In this document: positions 2,204 through 14,590 of the stretch, one piece after another | Layout of the letters: every line of letters begins with the position of its first letter | Position numbering within the stretch: the first letter of the stretch is position 1 | NCBI RefSeq assembly: GCF_006345805.1 | Contig: NW_021825658.1 | Span: 1-14,896, forward strand | Reading direction: 5' to 3' | Length of the DNA: 14,896 bases | Origin: Octopus sinensis | Lineage: Eukaryota | Translations under genes and position numbers: made by a program | The notes under the pieces: model-generated | What the model was told of the DNA's origin: nothing | Seen by the model: the letters and a program-made list of their open reading frames with translations, nothing else | The model's database searches: none

Positions 2204-2412
2204 TGTATCTGTGTAAACGCTCGCCTATGTGTACAATAATTTATATATATATATTAGTCGAAAGACACCTGTTGTTATTCTCTATTTGTTTGTATTTGTA
2301 TTAGTGTAACATTTTCTCCGTTTTCTCGTTTTTTTTTTGTCTGTGTTGTCGTACATACTTTCTTGCCTTCTTTCAAAAATGTAATGGTCTTAGCTTAGAT
2401 TTTTGGGGCCTA

Positions 2413-2479
2413 CCAATTTTGAACAGTCTCAAGTGTAACAGGCTGAAACTGTAATGATAATTGGAAGCTTGACTGATGA
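2413..2479 (+). ncRNA. Degenerate hammerhead-like scaffold with downstream CTGATGA box
   Basis: CCAATT-TTGAACA-GTCT..AGGC-t-GAAAC-tgtaat-GAT-AATTGG: 6 bp stem I, 4 bp stem II, non-canonical core; CTGATGA at 2473-2479. Confidence 0.4.
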
Positions 2480-2586
2480 GTAGAGGGCCACAAATTATCC
2501 GTCCTAGTTTTTCCTGTCCGTTTTAGTATCGTTTATCTGTCCTTATATTTTTATTGTCGTCCGTTACGTTCTTATTCCGTTTTTTG

Positions 2587-2589
<3 letters not shown>

Positions 2590-2644
<55 letters not shown>

Positions 2645-2648
2645 TATA
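2590..2648. repeat. (TA)n microsatellite
   Basis: Directly visible. Confidence 0.97.
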
Positions 2649-2803
2649 ATAAGAGTAAATAATTTCTATAATGGTTTTAAAAAGAACCCACAATTACTTA
2701 CTGGTAGAATTCGGTATGTAAATATAGCCGATTAACGGTAGGAACTTCTGTAAAGTTCAGTATATATATTGTATATAAGTAAATGGGATAGGCAACAGGA
2801 AAG

Positions 2804-2916
2804 CTGCGCTGAAGACGGATGTTAAATACATATGCAATGTATATGAAATATATATTAAAAATATATATTCAATATATATTCAATATATTTATAATCCAGA
2901 AACATGATGTTTGCAG
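2804..2916 (+). ncRNA. Type I hammerhead ribozyme candidate with long stem II
   Basis: Stem I CTGCG(2804-2808)/TGCAG(2912-2916); CTGAAGA 2809-2815; stem II GGAT..ATCC extended by an AT-rich imperfect hairpin; GAAA 2899-2902; stem III ACAT-G-ATGT; GUU cleavage triplet ending at 2911. Confidence 0.7.
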
Positions 2917-3031
2917 ATAACCGCCATACTTTGTTTTCGTTATCTATTCCTTCTGTTTTGCATATGTGAATTACAGGGTATGTCGTGTGTGGAGCCCCAC
3001 TTGTAGAAAATAGAAATAAACAGTCTTGACT

Positions 3032-3267
3032 GCTAAGTTACGGGGACGTAAACTCACCAACATCGGTTGTCAAATAGACACAGACACAAACGCACACACA
3101 TATACGACGGGCTTCTTTCAGTTTCCGTCTAACAAATCCGGTCAGAAGTCTTTGGTCAACCCAAGGCTGTTGTCGAAGGCACTCGTCCATGGTGCCACGC
3201 AGTGGAACTGTTCCCGGAACTATATAGTTGGGAAGCTAGCTTCTTACAACACAGCCACGCCTGCACC
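3032..3267 (-). mobile_element. SINE family A, 3'-truncated copy
   Basis: Reverse complement aligns to 10217-~10485, including the head (gtggctgtgttgtaagaagctagc) and gacggaaactgaaagaagcccgtcg. Confidence 0.9.
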
Positions 3268-3282
3268 TATTGATGTATATTG

Positions 3283-3351
3283 CTGGATTCGAATAGTCTC
3301 GGTCCTAAAAGGGTGCGAAACTATAATGACTTACCAGAAACCGACAGATGA
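3283..3351 (+). ncRNA. Degenerate hammerhead-like scaffold related to 2413-2479
   Basis: CTGG..gaatagtctc..GAAAC-tataat-GAC-tta-CCAG, then CAGATGA at 3345-3351; shares gaaYagtctc and gaaactRtaatga with 2421-2457. Confidence 0.3.
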
Positions 3352-3515
3352 AGAAATCTGCTGCGAATGGTCCATATATCTTGTTTCTGTTCTGTTTGCC
3401 GTTTGTTATATTATCGTCTGTGTTATCGCTTATGTAAGTTATCGTCTATTTTTCCGCATGTTGTGTTTTGTTCAATTTCGCTTATGTTCTTTTTGTCCTA
3501 CCTTTGTTTTATATA

Positions 3516-3529
3516 TAATAATGATGATG

Positions 3530-3602
<73 letters not shown>
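3516..3602. repeat. (TAA)n microsatellite
   Basis: Directly visible; source of the poly-I/poly-N ORFs. Confidence 0.97.
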
Positions 3603-3605
<3 letters not shown>

Positions 3606-3620
3606 CAATATATATATGTA

Positions 3621-3676
3621 TTACTCTTTTCTCTTTTACTCTTTTACTTGTTTCAGTCATTTAACTGCGGCCATGC
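3621..3676 (-). mobile_element. 3' tail fragment of SINE family A
   Basis: ctcttttacttgtttcagtcatttaactgcggccatgc is the reverse complement of ~10576-10612, with a similar short repeated tail. Confidence 0.85.
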
Positions 3677-4640
3677 ATGTATGGGTCTAGGACGTCCGTA
3701 ACTGTGTAAGCAACATGAAATACGTAGACAAACGAGTTAAATACATAAAGAACGAGAGAAAAAAATGGAAAACTGGGCAAGTAAACACAGAGAAACGACC
3801 CTTCATCAGTTGTCAGCCGTCTATCTACTCCTCATTTCGAGCATTCAACGACAATGAGTCTTCAAAGACAGTTGCTCTCTTAAATTCTAAAATAAATTTA
3901 GGATTTATGGAGGGTCAAAGTTGAGAACAAAAACAGGACAGTGGAGACATACAAGGAAGCCGAACAAAAACAAACATGGAGGATCGTTAGACCAGAACGA
4001 GAGGAAAATAGTGTACGCTAGGAGAAATATTTTCTTTGAAAAGAGAAAAGATAGAAGAGAGAGAGAGAGAGAGAGATAGAGAGAGAAAAAGTCCACTTCT
4101 ATGAACGTCCGTGCTGGAAAAGAAAGATGGTAATGTGTGAGCAACGAGAGAGAGAGAGAGAGAGAAAGAAAGAAAAACAGATAGGAATCGGTGAACGAGG
4201 GAGGGGGAGAAAAAGGGAATTAGAGAAGGATGGCGGGAGACAATAGTTTCTTTTTTTGTTTCTCCCTTCTATCTTTCCTCAACGAAAATATTTCACCCAG
4301 CGTTCACTATTTTCCTCTAGCTCTGGTTTAACCATCCTCTATGTTTGTTTTCGTTCGGCTTCCTTGTATGTCTCCAGTGTCCTGTTTTTGTTTTCAAATT
4401 TGACCCTCCATAAATCCGAAATTTTATTTTAGAATTTATGGGGGCAACTGTCTTTGAAGACTCATACTGTCGTTGAATGCTCGAAATGAGGAATAGATAG
4501 AGAGCCGACACCTGATGAAGGATCGTTTCTCTGTGTTTACTTGTCCAGTTTTCCGCTTTTTCTCTCGTTGTTTATGTATTTAACTCGTTTGTGTACGTAT
4601 TTCATGTTTACACAGTTGGTGACGTCCTATACCTATATAT
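3677..4640. repeat. Long inverted repeat: arms ~3677-4062 and ~4261-4640, spacer ~200 bp
   Basis: Arms are reverse complements along their length, e.g. catgaaatacgtagacaaacgagttaaatacataaa vs tttatgtatttaactcgtttgtgtacgtatttcatg, with scattered mismatches. Confidence 0.95.
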
Positions 4641-4656
4641 GCACTATATATATATA

Positions 4657-4701
<45 letters not shown>

Positions 4702-4740
4702 TATTTATATATATACATATATATATATTATTATGCATAG

Positions 4741-4795
<55 letters not shown>

Positions 4796-4800
4796 GAAGA

Positions 4801-4882
<82 letters not shown>

Positions 4883-4902
4883 AATAATGATAATAATAAT
4901 AA
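4636..4902. repeat. (TA)n followed by (TAA)n microsatellites
   Basis: Directly visible. Confidence 0.97.
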
Positions 4903-5140
4903 GTGGGTGTAAACACATGAATGAAATAAGAATAAACAAAAACAAAAACAAATTACACAAATTACACGAACGTATATAAACAGAAGATACAAATATTAAA
5001 GGCATTCCCCCCACCACACTAACTAAACATAGACGCATATAGAGATATACGCATGCGCAAATGGAGACACATACAATAGAAATACAAAATGGCTGACGAG
5101 TAGTAAGGAGAGACACACAAATAAGAAAGAAGAAAGCAAA

Positions 5141-5185
5141 GGATCACTGATGCGGTCACAGGAGTGTGACGAAAGAATTCTGGCC
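5141..5185 (+). ncRNA. Minimal hammerhead-like motif (A9>C variant)
   Basis: GGATCA-CTGATGC-G-GTCACA-ggag-TGTGAC-GAAA-GAATTC-TGGCC: perfect 6 bp stem II directly followed by GAAA, palindromic stem III region, imperfect stem I. Confidence 0.5.
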
Positions 5186-5297
5186 GAAATAAGATTAAGA
5201 TTAATGTAAAAAATAAATAACGCTTAAACAAAGTAGCACCAAATATATAGTGCGTGTGTTTTTATTGATTAAACTGGCAAAATGATCATTCCTAAAT

Positions 5298-5328
<31 letters not shown>

Positions 5329-5425
5329 ACGGGAAGCTTTATGAAAATAAACAAAAGACGAAGGCAGGTGGAATACAAACAAACAATTGTATTAGTATGG
5401 CGCTCAGGAATATAAATAAAGCAAG

Positions 5426-5463
5426 TCTTTTACGTTTCGAGCCTACGCTCTTCAACAGAAAGA
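5426..5463 (-). ncRNA. Minimal type I hammerhead ribozyme candidate (A6>U variant)
   Basis: Minus strand TCTTT-CTGTTGA-A-GAGC-gtag-GCTC-GAA-ACGT-A-AAAGA: 5 bp stem I, 4 bp stem II, loopless palindromic stem III, GUA triplet. Confidence 0.65.
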
Positions 5464-5764
5464 TACACAGAAAAGAAACACAGAAAGAAACAAGGAGAGA
5501 AAAAAATGCGTGCAGAGGCTAGCGAATCAACGGCAAATAAGAAAACGGAGTGGATATAAAATCGACAGACATCAGCCTGTAAACATTCCAGTATGTCTGT
5601 TTATTTAAATGTATTGGATAAATACACACACATGTATGAGTGAAGGGCATGAAAATATATAAGCATATAGAAACAAATGAGCAAGAGAGCAAATTGGCAA
5701 TAAACTGAATGGGTGTGCAGGTGCTAGTTCCTAGTTGGTTTCTCAACCTCTAACTCACACAGAA

Positions 5765-5765
<1 letters not shown>

Positions 5766-5804
<39 letters not shown>

Positions 5805-5806
5805 AT
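5766..5806. repeat. (CA)n microsatellite
   Basis: Directly visible. Confidence 0.95.
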
Positions 5807-5809
5807 ACC

Positions 5810-6185
5810 ACCCGGTCTTGGGTCCACTGTCATTGAGTACCGCTGTCTTCTGCTGTAGTCTCCGCTGACCAATGACACGTGAGTGAATTTGTTATTCGGA
5901 AACTGAGTGAAAGCCCTACACGTGTATGTATGTATGTATGTATGTATGTATGTATGTATGTATGTATGTATGTATGCATGTATGTGTGTGCTTTGTATTT
6001 GTGTTCGTCTCCCACTACCACTCCTCAACCGTTGTTGGTTTCTTTATGTTTGTGTTAACTAGCGGTCCGGCAAAAGAGGTTCGATAGAATTAGTACCAGA
6101 GTTAACAATAAGCACCTGTTCGATTAAACCGCCGTAGGCGGTGTCGCAGCACAGCAGTGGTTCATTGACTGTAACAAGTAAAACA
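5810..6185 (+). mobile_element. Old diverged SINE family A copy with internal (TATG)n
   Basis: tgtcttctgctgtag, gtgagtgaatttg, cggaaactga, tagcggtccggcaaaagag, gatagaat and tgactgtaacaagtaaa are colinear with 10217-10627; head eroded. Confidence 0.8.
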
Positions 6186-6594
6186 GATTATCTCCCTTTT
6201 TCATGGAAAGTTTTTTTCTTAACATTTACTTTCGGTTTCATTTTCTTTCCCCTGAAGTAAATTTCTATTCAATAATCCAATAGATAACCACCTACCTCAA
6301 CCACATATATTCATATCTTTCACCCAATTGAATTAATTCCCTAGGCCTAATTTCTGTAATTATGACGATGACAACGTCCAGATTATCATATCCTCATGAA
6401 TATTAACCCATAGATGTGGAAGAGAGGGATAGATCACATGTTCATAGCTCGAGAGTGTCAACTATAAAGTAATTAGCTCTCCAAGGCAGGACATGTTAAT
6501 TGAATACAGTTCTCACAATTAATGAAACATGACGGTTCTAATTAGACAGGAAACGTTTTAATTGTGATTAAGGTTTGTTGTTGCTTTGGCACTC

Positions 6595-6688
6595 ATATAC
6601 ATACATACATACATACATACATACATACATACATACATACATACATACATACATGTATGTGTGTGTGTTTGTGTGTATGTGTGTGTGT
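6595..6688. repeat. (CATA)n-(TG)n microsatellite
   Basis: Directly visible; abuts the 3' end of the SINE at 6690-7001. Confidence 0.95.
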
Positions 6689-6689
6689 C

Positions 6690-7001
6690 GGTTACGACGA
6701 TGAGGGTTACAGTAGATCCGATCGACGGAACAGCCTGCTCGTGAAATTAACGTGCAAGTGGCTGAGCATTCCACAGACACATGAGCCCTTAATGTAGTTC
6801 TCAGGAAGATACAACGTCACATAGAGTGTGACAAGGCTGGCCCCTTTGAAATACAGGTACAACTCATTTTTTCCAGCTGAATGACCTGGAGCAACGTGAA
6901 ATAAAGTATCTTGTTCAAGGACACAACGAGCTGCCGGGAACTGAACTCACGACCTTACGATGGTGAGCCAAATACCCTAACCACTAAACCATGCGCCTTC
7001 A
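6690..7001 (-). mobile_element. tRNA-derived SINE family B
   Basis: Minus strand starts tgaaggcgca with A box TGGTTTAGTGG (6981-6991) and B box GAGTTCAGTTCCC (6936-6948), then gtgtccttgaacaagatacttt; head shared with 13292-13409. Confidence 0.85.
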
Positions 7002-7027
7002 AACATACACACGCACACACATGTATG

Positions 7028-7060
<33 letters not shown>

Positions 7061-7075
7061 GTATGTGCGTAAATA

Positions 7076-7238
7076 CGCAGGCATGGCTGAGAAGCTCGTT
7101 TCAGAATCCCGTAGTTTCGGATTTCAGCTCCTCTGTAGAGTGCCAGGGGTAAGTGCCTTTTCTATTAGCCTTGCTAGACTAAAATGCTTTATGAGCAAAC
7201 TTGGCGTAAACGGAAACTGTGAAGAAGTCCTGCATATA
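7076..7238 (+). mobile_element. Diverged 5' half of SINE family A
   Basis: cgcaggcatggctg..agaagct..aagtgccttttctatta..acggaaactgtgaagaag is colinear with 10217-10380. Confidence 0.65.
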
Positions 7239-7504
7239 TATTACACTCATTTGATTTATTAATCACTAGTGTCGTAAATAGCTGTCGGATTGGGTAAAAA
7301 TTGGTTATTATGGACAGAAGCAATGTTAGTTCAAAATAGCATTCTGTATATCTTACTTAAAGCGGATATAGTACAGAGAGCCACACAGCTGCAGTGTTTC
7401 TCTAGAAAAAGCATCTCGTATAGATGTTTAGTGCTAAAAAGTACAGCACAGATGAGCATCATCAGCAGATGACAAAAGCCTACAAGCAGTGGTGGAGTTT
7501 CAAG

Positions 7505-7591
7505 GATTTGAACTCGATACATAAAATGCCGGAAAAGATGATGTTGAGTATTTTGTCCGACGTGCAAAGGAACCTGTTAACTTGCAACCTT
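7505..7591 (-). mobile_element. Diverged head of SINE family C
   Basis: gatttgaactc...tattttgtccgacgtgc...aacttgcaacctt resembles the reverse complement of 7977-8062. Confidence 0.5.
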
Positions 7592-7610
7592 ACTTTTCCA
7601 CATTGTAAAT

Positions 7611-7891
7611 CAAGAGTTCTCAACTATTTTTTTTTTATCTATGGATCCCTTTGATTACTATTCTTTACTACTGGACCCCCATAGTCATTCGATTTTAAAA
7701 CCTATTTTTATAGAAACCCCTTTCAAGAATCCTATTTTATTTTTCACGCGTTAACTTGAGTAGGTTGAACCGTGTAAAATGTTATAGAAAGAAACCTGTT
7801 TCTTACAGTATATACCAATATATACATCTAAAGCAAATTTTTTTTCATGGGCCCTTAAAATACTATTGTGGACCCCCAGTTTAATATTTTG
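7611..7891. mobile_element. Possible decayed hAT-type MITE
   Basis: Left end caagagttctcaac resembles the CAGTGGTTCTCAAC hAT/Charlie terminus; repeated tggacccc motifs; right end eroded, no TSD seen. Confidence 0.35.
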
Positions 7892-7899
7892 CTTGCGTA

Positions 7900-8423
7900 G
7901 GTCAAGGTAATCGACTTTCCCTATACCCCGAAACTTCTGGCCTTGTGCTAAAATTTGAAACCATTATTATTATTTCAAGGCAGCGAGCTGGCAGAATCGT
8001 TAACACGCAAGACAAAATGTCTAGTGGCCTTTCGTCCCTCTTCACGTTCTAAGTTCAAATTCCGACGAAGTCGGCTTTGCCTTTCATCCTTTTTGGGTCG
8101 ATAAAATACGTACTATCTGAGCACTGGGGTTGATATAATCGACTTACTCCCTCTCCCAAAATTGCTGACTTTGTGCTAAAATTTGAAACGATTACTATTA
8201 TTGTAAGGCAGCGAACTGGCAGAATCGTTAAAACACAGGGGACAATGCTTAGTGGCATTTCGTCCGTCTTTACTTTCTGAGTTCAAATTCCGCCGAGGTC
8301 GACTTTGCCTTTCATCCTTTTTGGGTCGATAAAATAAGTACTATCCGAGCACTGGGGTCGATGTAATCGAATTACTCCCTCCCCCAAAATTGCTGGCATT
8401 GTATCAGAATTTGAAACTAATAT
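7900..8423 (+). mobile_element. Tandem array of SINE family C (about 2.3 units, 228 bp period), Nin/Deu-like central domain
   Basis: Units start aaggcagcgaRctggcagaatcgtt at 7977 and 8205; B box GAGTTCAAATTCC 8279-8291; core gtcgactttgcctttcatcctttttgggtcgataaaataagtac; 3' third of another unit at 7900-7976. Confidence 0.9.
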
Positions 8424-8429
8424 ATCGCA

Positions 8430-9052
8430 TACATAGCTAAGGCTCGAGTGAGGCCCATAAAGGAGTAATGCAGTCAATCTAAGGCGGTGTTACTGCTGCA
8501 GAAAATGAGATTCTGGATTGCATCCAGAGGAGGATCAATTGTTTGGTATTGAACCATTAACGGGTACACTTGAGCTTCTCACCCACAGGCCTGCTGCGTG
8601 TGGTCTGTGAAACCTATTTGAGTTAGATGTAGGCGTAGTGTGTTGTTACCTAGGTGAAATGTGTGTGTATTGGCTGTACCCTTTCTAAACAACAGAGCCC
8701 GTGACCTTTGCAAAGCGTTGAAGACTGGTGAACTTATCTTTTCTATTGTTACCAAAATGGCCTCCGTTCTCCGAAGCTGGAAGCGCTTGTACCCTTATCA
8801 CTCCTCCTCACTTGATTCTCTGTTCTTTCCACATCGTGTCTAATTGCATCAGTTCTGCACTAGCCATTATGCCAAATCCATATCCCCCAGAATATCATCC
8901 TTCTGGAATCTCCTTCCCGTTCACGTATTTCGCGTAGATGTTGACTAGCAATCGCTTAAAAGGAACATCAGCGGCACCAAATTCACTAATATTAGAGGCT
9001 CTGCAAAAGACACGGGCTCTGCCCCTTCTTTCAGAAGGGGTACAGCCAATAT
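8430..9052 (+). mobile_element. Decayed LINE 3' end (CR1/Jockey-group ORF2 C-terminus plus 3' UTR), interrupted at 8599-8734
   Basis: Manual translation across stops and frameshifts: KARVRPIKE*CS..GG..ILDCIQRR..LELLTHR..FYCYQNGLRSPKLEALVP..TSHYAKSISPRISSFWNLLPVHVF..D*QSLKRNI, matching the post-RT motifs VRPxxEYCS, LDxIQRR and WNxLP. Confidence 0.85.
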
Positions 9053-9228
9053 AATACACACACACGCGCACACACACACACACATTTCACCCACGTCACA
9101 ATAGACCTCGCAAACACCTTACATAGATCACAGACCACATATTAATCTTATTCATCCATACTATCCCCACAAACTTAGTACGTAAGAGATACATACAAGC
9201 TTAGCCACTAGCTTCACAAACGTCTCAC

Positions 9229-9229
<1 letters not shown>

Positions 9230-9311
<82 letters not shown>

Positions 9312-9345
9312 GCAAACACACACACTTACACACACGCACACTCAC
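9230..9345. repeat. (CA)n microsatellite
   Basis: Directly visible. Confidence 0.97.
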
Positions 9346-9394
9346 CCATTCTTAATATTCTCTCCACAAACATCTATAACTGTCTTAATGTATA

Positions 9395-9603
9395 CAGTAA
9401 TTCCTCGACTATCGCGGGTGTTACGTTCCAAAACATCCCACAGAAATAATTAAAATCTACAAAAATATATCAGAGACCCAGATATGTTGAGGAGTCCGTG
9501 ATATAAATTTACATATATTAACCAGAAAAATCCGTGATCTATGGGTGAACCGCGATGTACTGAGTGCACGATAGGCGAACCGCGATATGGCGACGAATTA
9601 CTG
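9395..9603. mobile_element. Tc1/mariner (pogo/Tigger-like) MITE, 209 bp
   Basis: TIRs cagtaattcctcgactatcgcgg (9395-9417) and ccgcgatatggcgacgaattactg (9580-9603), TA on both flanks, subterminal gaaccgcgat at 9547 and 9577. Confidence 0.9.
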
Positions 9604-9620
9604 TATATAAATAATACTCA

Positions 9621-9680
9621 TGAATGTCTGATGAGCGGTTACAGGAAACTCCAACCCCGCGAATCTCCGTCTTGTGTTCA
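9621..9680 (+). ncRNA. Degenerate type I hammerhead ribozyme
   Basis: TGAATGT-CTGATGA(9628-9634)-GCGG..CCGC-GAAt-C-tcc-GTC-tt-GTGTTCA: perfect stem II base, GAAA>GAAT, GUC triplet, wobble-rich displaced stem I. Confidence 0.55.
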
Positions 9681-9784
9681 GAAGCGCGCGCGCGCAGTGT
9701 GCGTATTTTCTGCGTGCATGTGTGTTGTGATATATAATAGCGTCAGTGTGTATTTTTGCTCGTCTGTGTGTATGTTTCTGTTAT

Positions 9785-10108
9785 CTTTTTCTGTTTCCTG
9801 TTTCATGCGGCCACGCTGGGGCAACGAATCGATCCCAGTATTTATCTTTTATGCCTGGTAAATTAGCGGAGTCGCTAAGTTACGGGGACGTAAGCACACC
9901 AATATCGGTTGTCAAGTTGTGATCCGTGGAAAACACACACACACACACACAACGTAACGTACATATATATACGACGGGCTTCTTTCAGTGTCCGTCTAAC
10001 AAATTCACTCACAAGGCTTTGGTCAGCCTGAGGATATGCTGGAAAACACTTACCCAAGGTGCCACGCAGTGATACTGAACCCGGAACCACGTGTTCGGGA
10101 AGCAAGCT
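9785..10108 (-). mobile_element. SINE family A copy lacking its first ~25 nt (head found at 10868-10899)
   Basis: 9873-10108 is the reverse complement of ~10242-10485; eroded tail at 9785-9860. Confidence 0.9.
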
Positions 10109-10216
10109 TTTTTTTTATTTCATTAAATTGGCTATGGAAGCCGTACACAGATGTAGAAACTGCGGGCTGGATAAAGACATTAATAAGATGAGATGAATGA
10201 TGAACAGGAAGGTATA

Positions 10217-10627
10217 GGCGCAGGAGTGGCTGTGTGGTAAGTAGCTTGCTAACCAACCACATGGTTCTGGGTTCAGTCCCACTGCGTGGCATCTTGGGCA
10301 AGTGTCTTCTGCTATAGCCCCAGGCCGACCAATGCCTTGTGAGTGGATTTGGTAGACGGAAACTGAAAGAAGCCTGTCGTATATATGTATATATATATAT
10401 ATGTGTGTGTTTGTGTGTCTGTGTTTGTCCCCCTAGCATTGCTTGACAACTGATGCTGGTGTGTTTACGTCCCCGTCACTTAGCGGTTCGGCAAAAAAGA
10501 GACCGATAGAATAAGTACTGGGCTTACAAAGAATAAGTACCGGGGTTAATTTGCTCGACTAAAGGCTGTGCTCCAGCATGGCCGCAGTCAAATGACTGAA
10601 ACAAGTAAAAGAGAGTAAAAGAGAGTA
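10217..10627 (+). mobile_element. Near-intact tRNA-derived SINE family A (CORE-like block, internal TA/TG tract)
   Basis: A box TGGCTGTGTGG 10227-10237, B box GGTTCAGTCCC 10270-10280, cttgggcaagtgtctt block, tandem tail (gtaaaagaga)x2; several relatives in the window. Confidence 0.95.
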
Positions 10628-10690
10628 TTAATAAGAGGAGGCTAAAGACGCCCGTCGTTCTTTGCTTCTCTAAAACATTGTTCTTTTGTG

Positions 10691-10868
10691 AACTTACAAT
10701 TTGAGGCAATATTTTTTTGGGGACTCAAGGTCCTTACAATGAGGCACTAAGCTTCTTACCTCAAATGACACCTTGTCCTTGAAATGAGGCACTTGGCCTC
10801 TTACAATTTTCTTCGTATTGGCTATATGTCCTTTCAATATGAGGCACTCATCCTCTTTTACAATTTAC
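10691..10868. repeat. Degenerate spaced direct repeats, core ATGAGGCACT
   Basis: gtcctt..atgaggcact..ct(c)ttac units start at 10730, 10775 and 10828; partial unit at 10691-10710. Confidence 0.75.
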
Positions 10869-10899
10869 AAGCTCCTTGCCACACAGCCACGCTTACGCC
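10868..10899 (-). mobile_element. Detached 5' head of SINE family A
   Basis: Reverse complement ggcgtaagcgtggctgtgtggcaaggagcttg matches 10217-10248. Confidence 0.8.
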
Positions 10900-10929
10900 T
10901 ATATATATGTATAATATTTGCATATTTCT

Positions 10930-10991
<62 letters not shown>

Positions 10992-11062
10992 ATGTGTGTG
11001 TGTGTCTGTGTGTGTGTCTGTGTGTGTGTGTCTGTGTGTATGTCTCTGTGTGTGTGTATGTA
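10930..11062. repeat. (CA)n(TA)n(TG)n compound microsatellite
   Basis: Directly visible. Confidence 0.95.
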
Positions 11063-11450
11063 TATTTGCATATTTCCAGGGCTTAATAATAAAATAACAG
11101 AAATCATTATCAGTTACTCTCAAACTATAAAATGCGTTTCATCATTCACCTTTTTTCCATGCAAAAATTACCAATATTTTGGATGGCCATGGAGCGGGAA
11201 AGAATATTGAACATGGCGGTGGTTGGACATTATTACTGAAAAATAATAGCCTGATTGATCCAATCTTATTCCAGTTCTTGAAGTCTTTGAGAAATTTAAT
11301 AACACCGAGCAGTAGCAGCAGATATTTTCTTTACTTGATCGGAGCTGATGAAACGAGATACTTGCTTAAAATTCTCATATGTGGACATGAAACGAACACT
11401 CCCGGCCAATAACGTTCCAATGAACAGATATTATTATATTAACTAACAGA

Positions 11451-11488
11451 CTGCTACTACTACTGCTGCTGCTGCTGCTGCTACTACT

Positions 11489-11567
<79 letters not shown>

Positions 11568-11676
11568 CACCCACCACCACCACCACCACACCACCACCAC
11601 CAGCACCACCACTGCCGCCGCCGCCGCCACCACGGCCGCCACCACCACTGCCACCACCACCACCACCACCACCACC

Positions 11677-11728
<52 letters not shown>

Positions 11729-12657
11729 GAATAAGAACAGTGGCAGTAGTATTTGTAACAACAATAAAAATAGCAATAAAAACAACATTAATAATAACAA
11801 CAACAACAACAACAATAACAACAACAACAACAACAGTAGTAATAATGATATAGCGAGGCCAGTAATAACATTGTCGCATCAATAATGCTAGTAGTGGCAG
11901 CAGCGTTAGAAGAAGTTAAAAGTAATGATAATGGTGATGATGATGGTGATGATGAGGTGATGGTGAGATGATGATGATGAGGAGGAGGTGGAGGTGGAGA
12001 ATGGTGATGATAAGACCAATCTCTTGTAAACCAACAGCTATAACGATGACCTACTAAACTCGTAACACAACGACTTATGTATCATCAACGCAGCTCTCAC
12101 CGTTATCATCATCATCATCATCATCATCACCATTATCACTATCAATATCTTAATCCACCCACCATCACCACCACCATCATCACCACTACCACCATCGTCA
12201 TTATCATTGTCATTGCTATCGTCACCATCATCAACATCATCACCATTATCATCATGATCATCACCACAACCCAACCACGAACACCACCACTATCATAACC
12301 ACCACCTTCATTATAACCACAACCACCGCCACCACCTCCTCCAGGTCGCCCCCGCCGCTGCCGTCATCACCATCACCACTATCACCTCCATCAACTACCA
12401 ATATCACCACCACCATCACCATCATTATCACTACCATCGTCATTCTAACCGTTGTCGTCGTCGTCGCCACAGTCTTTGTAAACAACAACAACAACATCAA
12501 CAACAACACAACACAACAACAGTATCCACAGCACACTAGAGCGCGAAGGGAAGCAGCAATATCCGTAACTATGGTAACGAAATAATAAATTATTTATATA
12601 TTTATTTAGTAACACAATATATCAACGACACGGACAATAATTGAAATATCAGCTAAT

Positions 12658-12704
<47 letters not shown>

Positions 12705-12860
12705 AAACATCATCAACAGCAGTAATGACAACAGCAACAAAAACAACAATAATTAGTGCTGCTCGATTGGGACTGAAATATCAGCTAATACCAGCAACAG
12801 CAGCAGCAGCGGCCACAACATCCTCAACAGCAGCAATAATAACAACAACAGCAACGGTTG
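11451..12860. repeat. 1.4 kb mosaic of trinucleotide repeats (CTA, CTG, CCA, CCG, CAA, GAT, GAG, CAT, CAG)
   Basis: Directly visible; phase slips at ~11490, ~11571 and ~11590. Confidence 0.95.
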
Positions 12861-13067
12861 CGGTGACGGCGGCAAGGTTGATTGCTGTCATTTGACGAAA
12901 AGGGAGTCGGTTGTTGCATTTATTGAATTACCTGCCCTTGAATTAAAGTGTCCATAACTGAAATATTGTTCCTTCGAAGAGTCCCTGGAATACCATTACT
13001 CAGGAGGGTGCCTAGCTAGGAGATCAAGCAGTTTCTCCCGGTCAAGCTGCTATTCCTATGCATTAAG

Positions 13068-13102
13068 AGGTCATAGCTCTGGTACTAGGTCATAGCTCTG
13101 GT
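13068..13102. repeat. 16 bp exact direct repeat aggtcatagctctggt, 19 bp period
   Basis: Copies at 13068-13083 and 13087-13102. Confidence 0.9.
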
Positions 13103-13107
13103 GATTA

Positions 13108-13409
13108 GGGTAAAAGACCCCGTTCGGTCATGAATAACCATGGGATTGCACCTAGAAAGTTCCCCTCCGAGCCACAAGTTCGGGCAAGGTGGTTTATGCA
13201 GTCGCCCATGCATACAAGCTTCCTCTCTCCATGCCACCGATGTTATCCAAGCGAAAGGCAAAGGCCGAGACAGCTTGGCACTAGTGATGTCGCAACGTGA
13301 AATAAAGTGTCTTGCTCAAGAATACAACACACAGCCCGGTCCGGAAATCGAACTCACTACCTTATGATTTTGGGCTCGACGCTCTAGCCATTGAGCAATG
13401 CACCTTCAC
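13108..13409 (-). mobile_element. tRNA-derived SINE with a family B head and a different 3' body
   Basis: B box GAGTTCGATTTCC 13343-13355; gcaacgtgaaataaagtgtcttgctcaag shared with 6891-6919; 13108-13290 is unrelated to 6690-6860 and its 3' limit rests on recall of the family. Confidence 0.75.
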
Positions 13410-13546
13410 CCCACCCATATATATATATATCTATCTTGTATTTTATTGTGCAGTTTTATTGTTACGTCCTGTTTGTGTTACATTTTTTACGTGCTTGTTT
13501 TACCCCTCTGCGAGGTTATTTTATTTTAATTGTCTCGCAAGAAGGC

Positions 13547-13601
13547 CTAGTATTGACGAGTCGTGTCCTGTCTTGCTTTCGAAACACGCTAAGTCTACTA
13601 G
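13547..13601 (+). ncRNA. Type I hammerhead ribozyme candidate (C3>U), followed by a second CTGATGA at 13608
   Basis: CTAGTA-TTGACGA-G..C-GAAA-C-acgctaa-GTC-TACTAG: perfect 6 bp stem I in register, G-C closing pair, GUC triplet; rest of stem II weak. Confidence 0.6.
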
Positions 13602-13963
13602 CGACAGCTGATGATTGGGGATTTTCCTTGTGTAGCTTGTCCTGTACCTTGTTTTTCTGTTGTAAATAATGTTTTTCCCGTTTTCGTTCTCGTCCTGTTC
13701 CACGTCTCTGTCTTTCTGTTGTAAAAAAATGACTTTTCCGTTTTCGTTTCTGTCGAGTTCTACGTCTTTTTGTGGTGTCCTGTACTTACGTATATATATA
13801 TTTATATATGCATGTATATATACATGTAGATGTAGGTACGTACATATATGTTTGTATGTATGCATATATTTTATTTATTACACTATTGTCTGACAGCGCT
13901 TCGCGTCGGGTTCGTTCGATTCTTCGCTTCGTTCCGTTTCTTATCCTCCCAGTATTGTTTTAT

Positions 13964-14424: not shown

Positions 14425-14590
14425 GTGCAGGTGCGGCTGTGTGGTAAGAAGCTTGTTTCTCAATCACGTGATTTCGGGTTCAGCTCCACTGCGTGGAACC
14501 TTGGACAAGTGTCTTCTACTATAGTCTCGAGCCAACCAAAGCCATAGGAGTAGAACTGATAAATAGAAACTAAAAGAAGCCTTTCGCATA
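14425..14590 (+). mobile_element. 5' half of SINE family A
   Basis: ggctgtgtggtaagaagcttg, gggttcagctccactgcgtggaaccttggacaagtgtcttctactatag align to 10217-10380. Confidence 0.9.

What the first reader, a model, noticed from the sequence alone, without database searches (positions are those of the whole stretch)
2413..13642. Recurrent bipartite layout: weakened hammerhead followed 6-11 nt later by an orphan CTGATGA box
Seen in five places (second box at 2473, 3345 as CAGATGA, 3803-3809 minus, 4512, 13608). The first unit keeps GAAA but has UUGA-type changes; the second keeps CUGAUGA and in some copies a gaca/tgtc closing stem but lacks GAAA. The host repeats are T-rich, up to ~350-400 bp, and end near (TA)n; two have similar ends (gtcctatacc 4624, gtcctgtact 13777). 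Inference: a split or complementing double-hammerhead, or an alternative-fold switch; I do not recognise this arrangement as described.
Basis: partly seen in the sequence, partly recalled or inferred. Interest (0 to 1): 0.7.

Follow-up and report, generated by a model that had tools for sequence, protein, structure and literature searches.

The report
Core-opened rearranged hammerhead in Naiad retroelements
The five sites are not pairs of broken ribozymes: each is one predicted hammerhead fold wired in an order I could not find in print, the same wiring sits in the tail of Naiad jumping genes from corals to octopus, and it is likely the self-cutting RNA that this family was reported to lack, although cutting is untested.

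Summary
Order, 5' to 3': IVa, hairpin H0, IIa, Pa, IIIa, UH (cut), Ia, IIb, GAAA, IIIb, Pb, Ib, CUGAUGA, IVb. Cut site, GAAA and CUGAUGA come in the non-circular order of type-SGC/CSG hammerheads (Eckert 2023). The difference is that stem II's partner lies about 40 nt upstream of GAAA, so A9 and G10.1 are not joined; two extra helices form a four-way junction there. Four unrelated repeat families in the window keep the helices with different letters (4 hits against 0.10 in shuffles). The family majority restores every defective pair of one copy. The same layout is in 87 of 111 metagenome loci, some behind a Naiad-like RT end, in 0 of 125 viral controls, and by eye in 11 of 54 published Naiad consensus sequences; 6 nematode Naiads are type CSG. 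Cleavage is untested, RNA reads showed no ends at the site, and the window copies' Naiad origin is inferred. New variant of a known kind.

The parts
2365..2488 (+). Copy 1 of the rearranged hammerhead: IVa 2365-2371, H0 2373-2406, IIa 2407-2411, Pa 2413-2418, IIIa 2423-2427, predicted cut after C2428, Ia 2429-2433, IIb 2440-2444, GAAA 2445-2448, IIIb 2448-2452, Pb 2459-2464, Ib 2468-2472, CUGAUGA 2473-2479, IVb 2482-2488; kink-turn-like loop 2419-2422 with 2453-2458
   Evidence: stems I 5/5, II 5/5 (one G-U), III 5/5, P 6/6, H0 8/8, IV 7/7
2256..2589 (+). Approximate host repeat of copy 1, between a short TA run and (AT)30 at 2590-2648
   Evidence: sequence; bounds approximate
3275..3351 (+). 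Copy 2, decayed and 5'-truncated: IIa remnant 3275-3281, Pa 3283-3286, IIIa 3293-3297, cut site after C3298, Ia 3299-3303, IIb 3311-3316, GAAA 3317-3320, Pb 3334-3337, Ib 3340-3344, CAGAUGA 3345-3351 (core U4 changed, predicted inactive); helix IV and H0 absent, a SINE end lies there
   Evidence: SINE arm 3071-3270
3271..3510 (+). Approximate host repeat of copy 2, followed by TA and (ATA)n at 3515-3610
   Evidence: sequence
3796..3917 (-). Copy 3 (minus strand): IVa 3917-3911, H0 3910-3878, IIa 3877-3873, Pa 3871-3866, IIIa from 3858, cut site 2 nt shorter than in copy 4 (predicted inactive), IIb 3843-3839, GAAA 3838-3835, Pb 3822-3817, Ib 3815-3810, CUGAUGA 3809-3803, IVb 3802-3796
3676..4270 (-). 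Host repeat of copy 3, the longer arm of a head-to-head inverted pair with the host of copy 4
   Evidence: I3; 88% over 382 nt
4402..4524 (+). Copy 4: IVa 4402-4407, H0 4408-4441, IIa 4442-4446, Pa 4448-4453, IIIa 4461-4465, predicted cut after A4466, Ia 4467-4472, IIb 4478-4482, GAAA 4483-4486, IIIb 4486-4490, Pb 4499-4504, Ib 4506-4511, CUGAUGA 4512-4518, IVb 4519-4524
   Evidence: majority letters of related copies
4250..4633 (+). Host repeat of copy 4, member of a high-copy family, followed by (TA)n at 4645-4728
   Evidence: (3884 and 4766 contigs laid in two DNA runs at 80% likeness)
13503..13620 (+). Copy 5: IVa 13503-13506, H0 13509-13539, IIa 13541-13546, Pa 13547-13552, IIIa 13562-13566, predicted cut after C13567, Ia 13568-13572, IIb 13575-13580, GAAA 13581-13584, IIIb 13584-13588, Pb 13596-13601, Ib 13603-13607, CUGAUGA 13608-13614, IVb 13617-13620
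   Evidence: stems I 5/5, II 6/6 (one G-U), III 5/5, P 6/6, H0 8/8, IV 4 bp
13432..13790 (+). Approximate host repeat of copy 5, with TA runs on both sides
   Evidence: sequence

Best explanation
Each site is one predicted hammerhead ribozyme, likely carried in the 3' end of a 5'-truncated Naiad-type Penelope-like retroelement, whose blocks run cut site, GAAA, CUGAUGA and whose chain is opened inside the core, between A9 and G10.1. Shown by sequence and comparison: stems I, II and III with all conserved core letters; the 5' strand of stem II lies 38-42 nt upstream of G12; the tail after CUGAUGA pairs with a segment about 75 nt upstream of G12 (helix IV), and a hairpin (H0) sits between that segment and G10.1, so core, stem II, H0 and helix IV meet in a four-way junction with 0-2 unpaired bases; helix P extends stem III through an asymmetric, in two families kink-turn-like, loop and joins the far ends of stems I and II, like the 'I' helix of type-SGC/CSG hammerheads. 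Inferred: the RNA folds only after CUGAUGA has been transcribed and then cuts slowly after UH, probably with help from a protein; in tandem elements the cut in the upstream repeat frees the element RNA from read-through transcripts, while uncut RNA is the template for insertion into (TA)n, which is why genomic copies keep the whole motif plus 110-180 nt behind it. The window copies are old; copies 2 and 3 are predicted dead.
For: Four families with no BLAST similarity keep the helices with different letters: in the four copies with a whole cut site stem III is 20/20, stem I 20/21, P 21/22 paired; stem II is 16/16 in copies 1, 4, 5 and 5/5 in copy 3. Descriptor with the upstream stem-II partner: 4 hits, shuffle mean 0.10, 0 of 300 shuffles reach 4; with the partner behind A9: 1 hit, 8 of 300 reach it. 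Related copies laid on 4180-4632: the majority letter differs from the window at 4443, 4467, 4502, 4511 and 4522 (89-99% of contig depth in both DNA runs), and each change gives a Watson-Crick pair in stem II, stem I, P or helix IV. A metagenome search whose pattern did not contain IIa, H0 or IV gave 120 loci: upstream stem II 569 of 620 cells paired against 114-275 of 548 for partners behind A9; helix IV and H0 abut the core with no unpaired base; on 30 of them 92.7% of cells pair against 24-46% when slid, with two-sided changes between the two subfamilies in stem I, P and helix IV. Descriptor met by 87 of 111 metagenome loci and 0 of 125 viral loci that carry the same two core words. Loci L047, L035, L056, L058, L005 carry the end of an RT frame that stops about 210-230 nt before the motif with no endonuclease behind it. 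By eye, 11 of 54 Naiad consensus sequences of PMC8557442 show the same order and 6 nematode ones are type CSG. Type SGC and CSG hammerheads cut in vitro (PMC10085705). A Penelope hammerhead is protein-assisted and uncut RNA is the insertion template (PMC11167929, passages).
Against: No cleavage test. I found no paper showing that a hammerhead works with A9 and G10.1 unlinked; Eckert et al. assume this block cannot be interrupted. Two RNA runs showed family reads on both strands and no pile-up of ends at the site (table 6; about 6% of each run read, mostly diverged copies). The window holds no Naiad ORF remnant (tblastn best E 0.31), so the Naiad origin of these five copies rests on shared layout, short shared words, TA targets and the inverted pair. 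The RT piece P0001 matched no Pfam family; its Naiad likeness is by eye. A covariance model from the metagenome copies did not find the window copies significantly (copy 1 aligned whole at E 3.1, below microsatellites). Stem II shows no two-sided change within the metagenome set, and the count of pairs with two-sided change (5) did not exceed shuffles (364 of 500); those changes are few events between two subfamilies. Helix IV is only 4 bp in copy 5, missing in copy 2 and weak in Naiad_Obim/Ovul; stem II is weak in Naiad_Esco. Nested MFE folds recover only part of the model. Helices IV and H0 were found after looking and were not put through a window shuffle test.
Confidence: 0.65

Rival explanations
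1. Same secondary structure, but it is active only as a domain-swapped dimer: the loop of one copy's P/III hairpin (cut site, Ia, IIb, GAAA) pairs with the flanks (IIa; Ib-CUGAUGA) of a second copy in a tandem transcript, so cutting reports the presence of two terminal repeats.
For: Canonical Penelope hammerheads work as dimers (PMC4209133, read in part). In the metagenome families stem III is 13 bp with a palindromic centre and joins P through a one-sided 7-nt bulge, and one published Naiad has a near-continuous 15-bp helix (by eye); a monomer must make a U-turn there, which long straight helices make hard (inference from geometry).
Against: Copies 1 and 2 and Naiad_Obim/Ovul have a kink-turn-like loop at exactly this bend, and others have a three-way junction or asymmetric loop, which would let a monomer fold back. 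Type SGC/CSG monomers cut (PMC10085705).
Confidence: 0.2
2. A hammerhead-derived but non-cutting RNA scaffold that the element's RT-endonuclease recognises to start reverse transcription.
For: Inserted copies always keep the uncut motif; no RNA ends at the site; hammerhead cutting was not needed for Penelope insertion in vitro (PMC11167929); the core is opened in an untested way.
Against: Every catalytic letter (CUGANGA, GAAA, A15.1-U16.1, H17, G10.1-C11.1) is kept across phyla while stems change freely, and sister Naiads in nematodes carry type CSG, a form shown to cut.
Confidence: 0.11
3. Ordinary type-SGC hammerhead with stem II formed by the bases right after CUGAUGA (my first reading).
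For: Block order S, G, C fits; copy 3 can form 4 pairs (two G-U) there.
Against: Only 21-50% of cells pair in the metagenome set against 92% for the upstream partner; 7 of 111 against 87 of 111 loci; those bases pair in helix IV instead.
Confidence: 0.02
4. One reading: a weakened type I hammerhead plus a second, orphan box that complements it or switches its fold.
For: The UUGA word and helix P mimic a type I core and stem I.
Against: The UUGA words lack the core pattern in two copies and no stem II or UH site fits that reading; the family majority does not restore CUGA; coral-type and other Naiads with the same layout have no UUGA word at all.
Confidence: 0.02

Closest known systems
Type-SGC and type-CSG non-circularly permuted hammerhead ribozymes (Eckert, Friedrich, Weinberg and Weinberg 2023, PMC10085705; main text read, supplement in part)
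   Same: Cyclic block order S-G-C; short linker joining Ia to IIb; an extra helix (their 'I', here P) joining the far ends of stems I and II; all conserved core letters.
   Different: There CUGAnGA and the adjacent stem II strand are contiguous ('block C'); here they are on opposite ends of the motif, with helix IV and H0 inserted as a four-way junction, and P is joined to stem III on both strands. SGC was found only in metatranscriptomes and CSG in soil DNA, none in genomes of known organisms.
Naiad clade of Penelope-like elements, 'HHR_half_core' annotation (Craig et al. 2021, PMC8557442; passages and supplement files S1, S5 in part)
   Same: (TA)n targets, 5'-truncated and inverted copies, motif near the 3' end; Naiad_Obim and Naiad_Ovul share the layout, the kink-turn-like loop and two short words with the window families.
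   Different: The paper reports no canonical hammerhead in Naiads and notes only core halves 35-50 nt apart; it gives no fold. The window families are not close sequence relatives of Naiad_Obim and hold no ORF here.
Minimal type I hammerheads of canonical Penelope-like elements and non-LTR retrozymes (Cervera and de la Pena 2014, PMC4209133; Li et al. 2026 preprint 10.64898/2026.07.22.740005; both read in part)
   Same: Hammerhead in the terminal repeat of a Penelope-like element; one extra base is tolerated between A9 and G10.1.
   Different: Those are circular type I with a 0-2 bp stem III and need dimers; these have a full 5-13 bp stem III, non-circular order and two helices at the A9/G10.1 position; no tandem retrozyme arrays in the window.
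Pseudoknot-containing hammerhead (Zhan et al. 2024, PMC11300833; passages)
   Same: A hammerhead with rewired periphery and an extra helix called IV.
   Different: A9 and G10.1 stay adjacent there; its helix IV is the stem of the pseudoknot, not a helix at the A9/G10.1 step.

Membership tests
Hammerhead ribozyme class | Core words CUGANGA, GAAA and UH | tested here: met
   All three in copies 1, 4, 5; copy 2 has CAGAUGA, copy 3 lacks 2 nt at the cut site
Hammerhead ribozyme class | Stems I, II, III flank the core words in register, with G10.1-C11.1 and A15.1-U16.1 | tested here: met
   copy 1 has G-U at 10.1-11.1
Hammerhead ribozyme class | Site-specific self-cleavage after H17 | not testable with these tools
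   No assay; RNA reads showed no pile-up of ends, which is weak
Hammerhead types I, II, III (Rfam) | Circular block order and match to an Rfam model | tested here: not met
   Order is S-G-C; no hammerhead among 146 Rfam matches
Type-SGC hammerhead (Eckert 2023) | Block order S, G, C | tested here: met
Type-SGC hammerhead (Eckert 2023) | Intact block C: stem II strand within 0-2 nt behind CUGAnGA | tested here: not met
Type-SGC hammerhead (Eckert 2023) | Helix joining the far ends of stems I and II | tested here: met
   helix P, 21/22 in the window, 866 of 933 cells in metagenome loci
Naiad Penelope-like element (window copies) | Single ORF with N-terminal GIY-YIG and C-terminal RT | tested here: inconclusive
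   No ORF remnant in the window; metagenome loci show only the RT end with no endonuclease behind it; no genome held
Naiad Penelope-like element (window copies) | Insertion in (TA)n and inverted, 5'-truncated arrangement | tested here: met
   criteria from PMC8557442
Naiad Penelope-like element (window copies) | 3' end resembles known Naiad 3' ends | tested here: inconclusive
   Same motif layout, kink-turn-like loop and two short words as Naiad_Obim/Ovul (by eye); no alignment-level homology shown (not significant)
Non-LTR retrozyme | Head-to-tail tandem units each with a type I hammerhead | tested here: not met
   No tandem array of these hosts; not type I
Kink-turn (consensus recalled, no call) | 3-nt bulge followed by tandem G-A, A-G pairs between two helices | tested here: inconclusive
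   Pattern fits copies 1, 2 and Naiad_Obim/Ovul by eye; imperfect in copies 3-5; no structural test

The most novel reading that the evidence does not exclude
A seventh hammerhead architecture: non-circularly permuted and entered through a four-way junction inside the catalytic core, active, and the standard ribozyme of a large part of the Naiad clade from ctenophores and corals to crustaceans and cephalopods, with nematode Naiads carrying the sister type-CSG form. Non-circular hammerheads would then be common in animal genomes, thousands of copies per genome, and Naiads would give a natural series showing how one permutation turns into another.
Probability: 0.6. Interest if true: 0.9.

Novelty: new variant of a known kind. 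Interest (0 to 1): 0.8.

Why it matters
It would fill a stated gap (Naiads were reported to lack hammerheads), move non-circularly permuted hammerheads from anonymous environmental contigs into animal genomes with a defined host element, and break the assumption behind the 'complete' list of six permutations, that CUGAnGA and stem II cannot be separated. It is testable with one in vitro transcription, and standard ribozyme searches miss it, so copy numbers of hammerheads in invertebrate genomes may be underestimated.

Tried and rejected
Type I reading of the first unit: rejected. Plain type SGC with stem II behind A9: my first reading, rejected; the downstream 'I helix' I first noted by eye was dropped with it. 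Copy 2's best-scoring stem II partner at 3263-3268 lies inside a SINE arm and is treated as chance; one search's shuffle count (4 against 0.05) and one search's table used it, so, which uses the in-register partner at 3275 (4 of the first 5 paired, two G-U), is the one to rely on; the scan listed a second-best register for copy 5, and for copy 4's IIa. Own genome not held. A strict pattern for the kink-turn subtype found nothing in metagenome or viral contigs. Coral-type pattern in viral contigs: 1 chance hit. Rows dropped: 5 of 121 loci as chance and 6 unassigned; 6 chance, 19 too short, 16 truncated upstream and 3 unassigned; 9 of 120 too short. Covariance model search of the window not significant. 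Pfam on P0001 empty. tblastn of RT pieces against the window empty. Runs with small word shares were not used as evidence. A word shared between an oligo of CSG-1 and a nematode Naiad proved to be in different positions and was dropped. Spider and ostracod Naiad sites with CUGACGA could not be parsed by eye.
Full report
Setting. The window is microsatellite-rich animal DNA with SINE-like repeats and no credible ORF. No whole genome is held. I take it to be cephalopod-like from recalled SINE sequence and from words shared with published octopus Naiads; this is inference. Rfam gave 146 matches at E up to 5, none a hammerhead.

Observation. The five boxes, the upstream GAAA, the TTGA-type words and the similar ends are at the stated places. 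GAAA 18-30 nt before C[TA]GATGA occurs 5 times against 0.24 in 300 shuffles. The 3809 and 4512 copies are one inverted pair (88% over 382 nt); the other hosts share no BLAST similarity, so there are four families.

Re-reading. In each site the 5 nt after a UH upstream of GAAA pair with the 5 nt before CUGAUGA (stem I), and the bases before UH pair with those after GAA (stem III). The order cut site, GAAA, CUGAUGA is the non-circular order of type-SGC hammerheads (PMC10085705, parts 1-6 of 8 read). But the bases before GAAA do not pair with those behind A9. Their partner lies at -38, -42, -39, -41 and -40 from G12 in copies 1-5; it is unbroken over 5-6 bp in four copies and decayed in copy 2. 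The descriptor with this partner gives 4 hits against 0.10 in shuffles (0 of 300 reach 4); with the partner behind A9 it gives 1 (8 of 300). Copy 3 is missed because it lacks 2 nt at the cut site. A further helix P extends stem III through an asymmetric loop, which in copies 1 and 2 fits a kink-turn pattern (consensus recalled). The tail behind CUGAUGA pairs with a segment far upstream (helix IV; 7, 7, 5 of 6 and 4 bp in copies 1, 3, 4, 5) and a hairpin H0 fills the space between that segment and G10.1. These two helices were found after looking and have no window shuffle test.

Related copies of the window family. Twenty of 24 listed runs hold part of 3690-4640, at most 0.38 of its words. Laying four runs on 4180-4632 at 80% likeness placed 3884 and 4766 contigs from two DNA runs, so the family is high-copy. 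Of the rows shown (40 of 155), ten places fall in 4402-4524. Five are in helices I, II, P and IV (4443, 4467, 4502, 4511, 4522), and at each the majority letter (89-99% of depth) makes a Watson-Crick pair under the model; the other five rows concern loop or inner-hairpin positions (4418, 4431, 4455, 4493). Heterogeneity begins at 4525-4527, right behind helix IV. The two RNA runs gave 481 and 453 reads, both strands about equal, and no pile-up of ends; this neither shows nor excludes cleavage.

Published Naiads. Craig et al. (PMC8557442; passages; supplement) report that Naiads lack canonical hammerheads, target (TA)n, form inverted truncated pairs, and in eight cases carry core halves 35-50 nt apart. 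Searching their consensus file for the four CUGANGA words (60 of 62, 30 of 43, 23 of 23 and 25 of 25 places seen; all Naiad parts covered; words broken by line ends are missed) and reading by eye, 11 of 54 Naiads show the window's layout: one ctenophore record, one Clytia record, three Acropora, two records in part 12, one crustacean record in part 19, Naiad_Obim, Naiad_Ovul and, with weak stem II, Naiad_Esco. Helix IV and H0 abut the core with 0-1 unpaired bases in the Clytia, Acropora, part-12 and part-19 records; helix IV is weak in Obim/Ovul. Six of 8 nematode Naiads are clean type CSG with block C intact. Obim and Ovul share the kink-turn-like loop with copies 1-2, an 8-nt word in the H0 loop with copies 3-5 and an 11-nt word upstream with the majority of the copy-4 family.

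Independent loci. Upstream stem II: 569 of 620 cells paired; partners behind A9: 114, 170 and 275 of 548; stem I 613 of 657; stem III 1280 of 1403; P 866 of 933. In 77 copies with intact upstream sequence H0 paired in 437 of 462 cells and helix IV over 10 bp, against 23-30% when slid. On 30 copies, 92.7% of cells pair (slid 24-46%), 50 cells change on both sides (shuffles 24.2), in stem I, P and helix IV; the number of such pairs (5) does not exceed shuffles, stem II has none, and the changes are few events between two subfamilies. The descriptor is met by 87 of 111 of these loci and 0 of 125 viral loci with the same core words. Several loci carry the end of an RT frame that stops about 210-230 nt before the motif with no endonuclease behind it, matching Naiad RT motifs by eye; Pfam did not recognise the piece. 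No such remnant is in the window, and a covariance model from these loci did not find the window copies significantly.

Mechanism. Shown: the pairing pattern and core letters. Inferred: a hammerhead core in which stem II stacks on the A9-G12 pair across a four-way junction with H0 and helix IV; P plays the part of the 'I' helix and bends back to stem III; the fold completes only after CUGAUGA is made; cutting is slow or protein-assisted, frees element RNA from read-through or tandem transcripts, and uncut RNA is inserted, as reported for a Poseidon element (PMC11167929, passages). One extra base at this step is common in Penelope hammerheads (PMC4209133, parts 1-2 of 4), but a break is untested. 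The main rival is a domain-swapped dimer, favoured by long straight P/III helices in some families; a non-cutting scaffold is less likely.

Novelty. Ten searches of the open library and passages of PMC6765202, PMC3088659, PMC10162972, PMC6155905, PMC7936874, PMC13725137 and PMC11300833 showed no report of permuted hammerheads in Naiads or of a hammerhead opened between A9 and G10.1; 'type-SGC' occurs in one paper only. The preprint 10.64898/2026.07.22.740005 (parts 1-2 of 5) searched only for type I. Subscription journals are not covered. Earlier notes of this scan mention a core-opened hammerhead in phages, rearranged hammerheads in Naiad-like elements and twisters in clam Naiads; these are unchecked leads, not support. 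Verdict: real, new variant of a known kind, interest 0.8.

Noticed in passing
window 5140-5185 +: Decayed type-I minimal hammerhead-like motif (core with A9 changed, 5-bp stem II, GAAA, UUC site), perhaps from a canonical Penelope-like element.
   Followed up: no
window about 5420-5462, minus strand: Second minimal-hammerhead-like word set (UUGAAGA, short hairpin, GAAAC, GUA).
   Followed up: no
window 3676-4270 minus / 4250-4633 plus: Head-to-head inverted pair of one element with unequal 5' truncation, the arrangement described for Penelope-like insertions; contig depth drops at the joint 4244-4275.
   Followed up: partly
window 4418 and 4431: Partners in the inner H0 stem; related copies show U or C at 4418 and A or G at 4431, suggestive of covariation, but the table is unphased.
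   Followed up: partly
subfamily A loci such as L009, about 25 nt behind CUGAUGA: A second copy of the IIb word that could compete for IIa; absent from subfamily B, so not a conserved switch.
   Followed up: no
PMC8557442 supplement S5, nematode Naiads: Six of eight are type-CSG hammerheads by eye; the two validated CSG ribozymes came from soil DNA and might be nematode Naiad tails.
   Followed up: partly
PMC8557442 supplement S5, spider and ostracod Naiads: A recurrent C-run followed by CUGACGA near the 3' end that I could not fit to either layout; possibly a further variant.
   Followed up: no
window 3020-3270, 9870-10110, 10214-10610, 14425-14590: Copies of a SINE-like repeat in both orientations; one abuts and apparently truncates copy 2.
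   Followed up: partly
window 7943-8417: Two tandem copies of a 228-bp unit, 86% alike.
   Followed up: no
window 13650-13767: 60-bp tandem duplication inside the tail of the host of copy 5.
   Followed up: no
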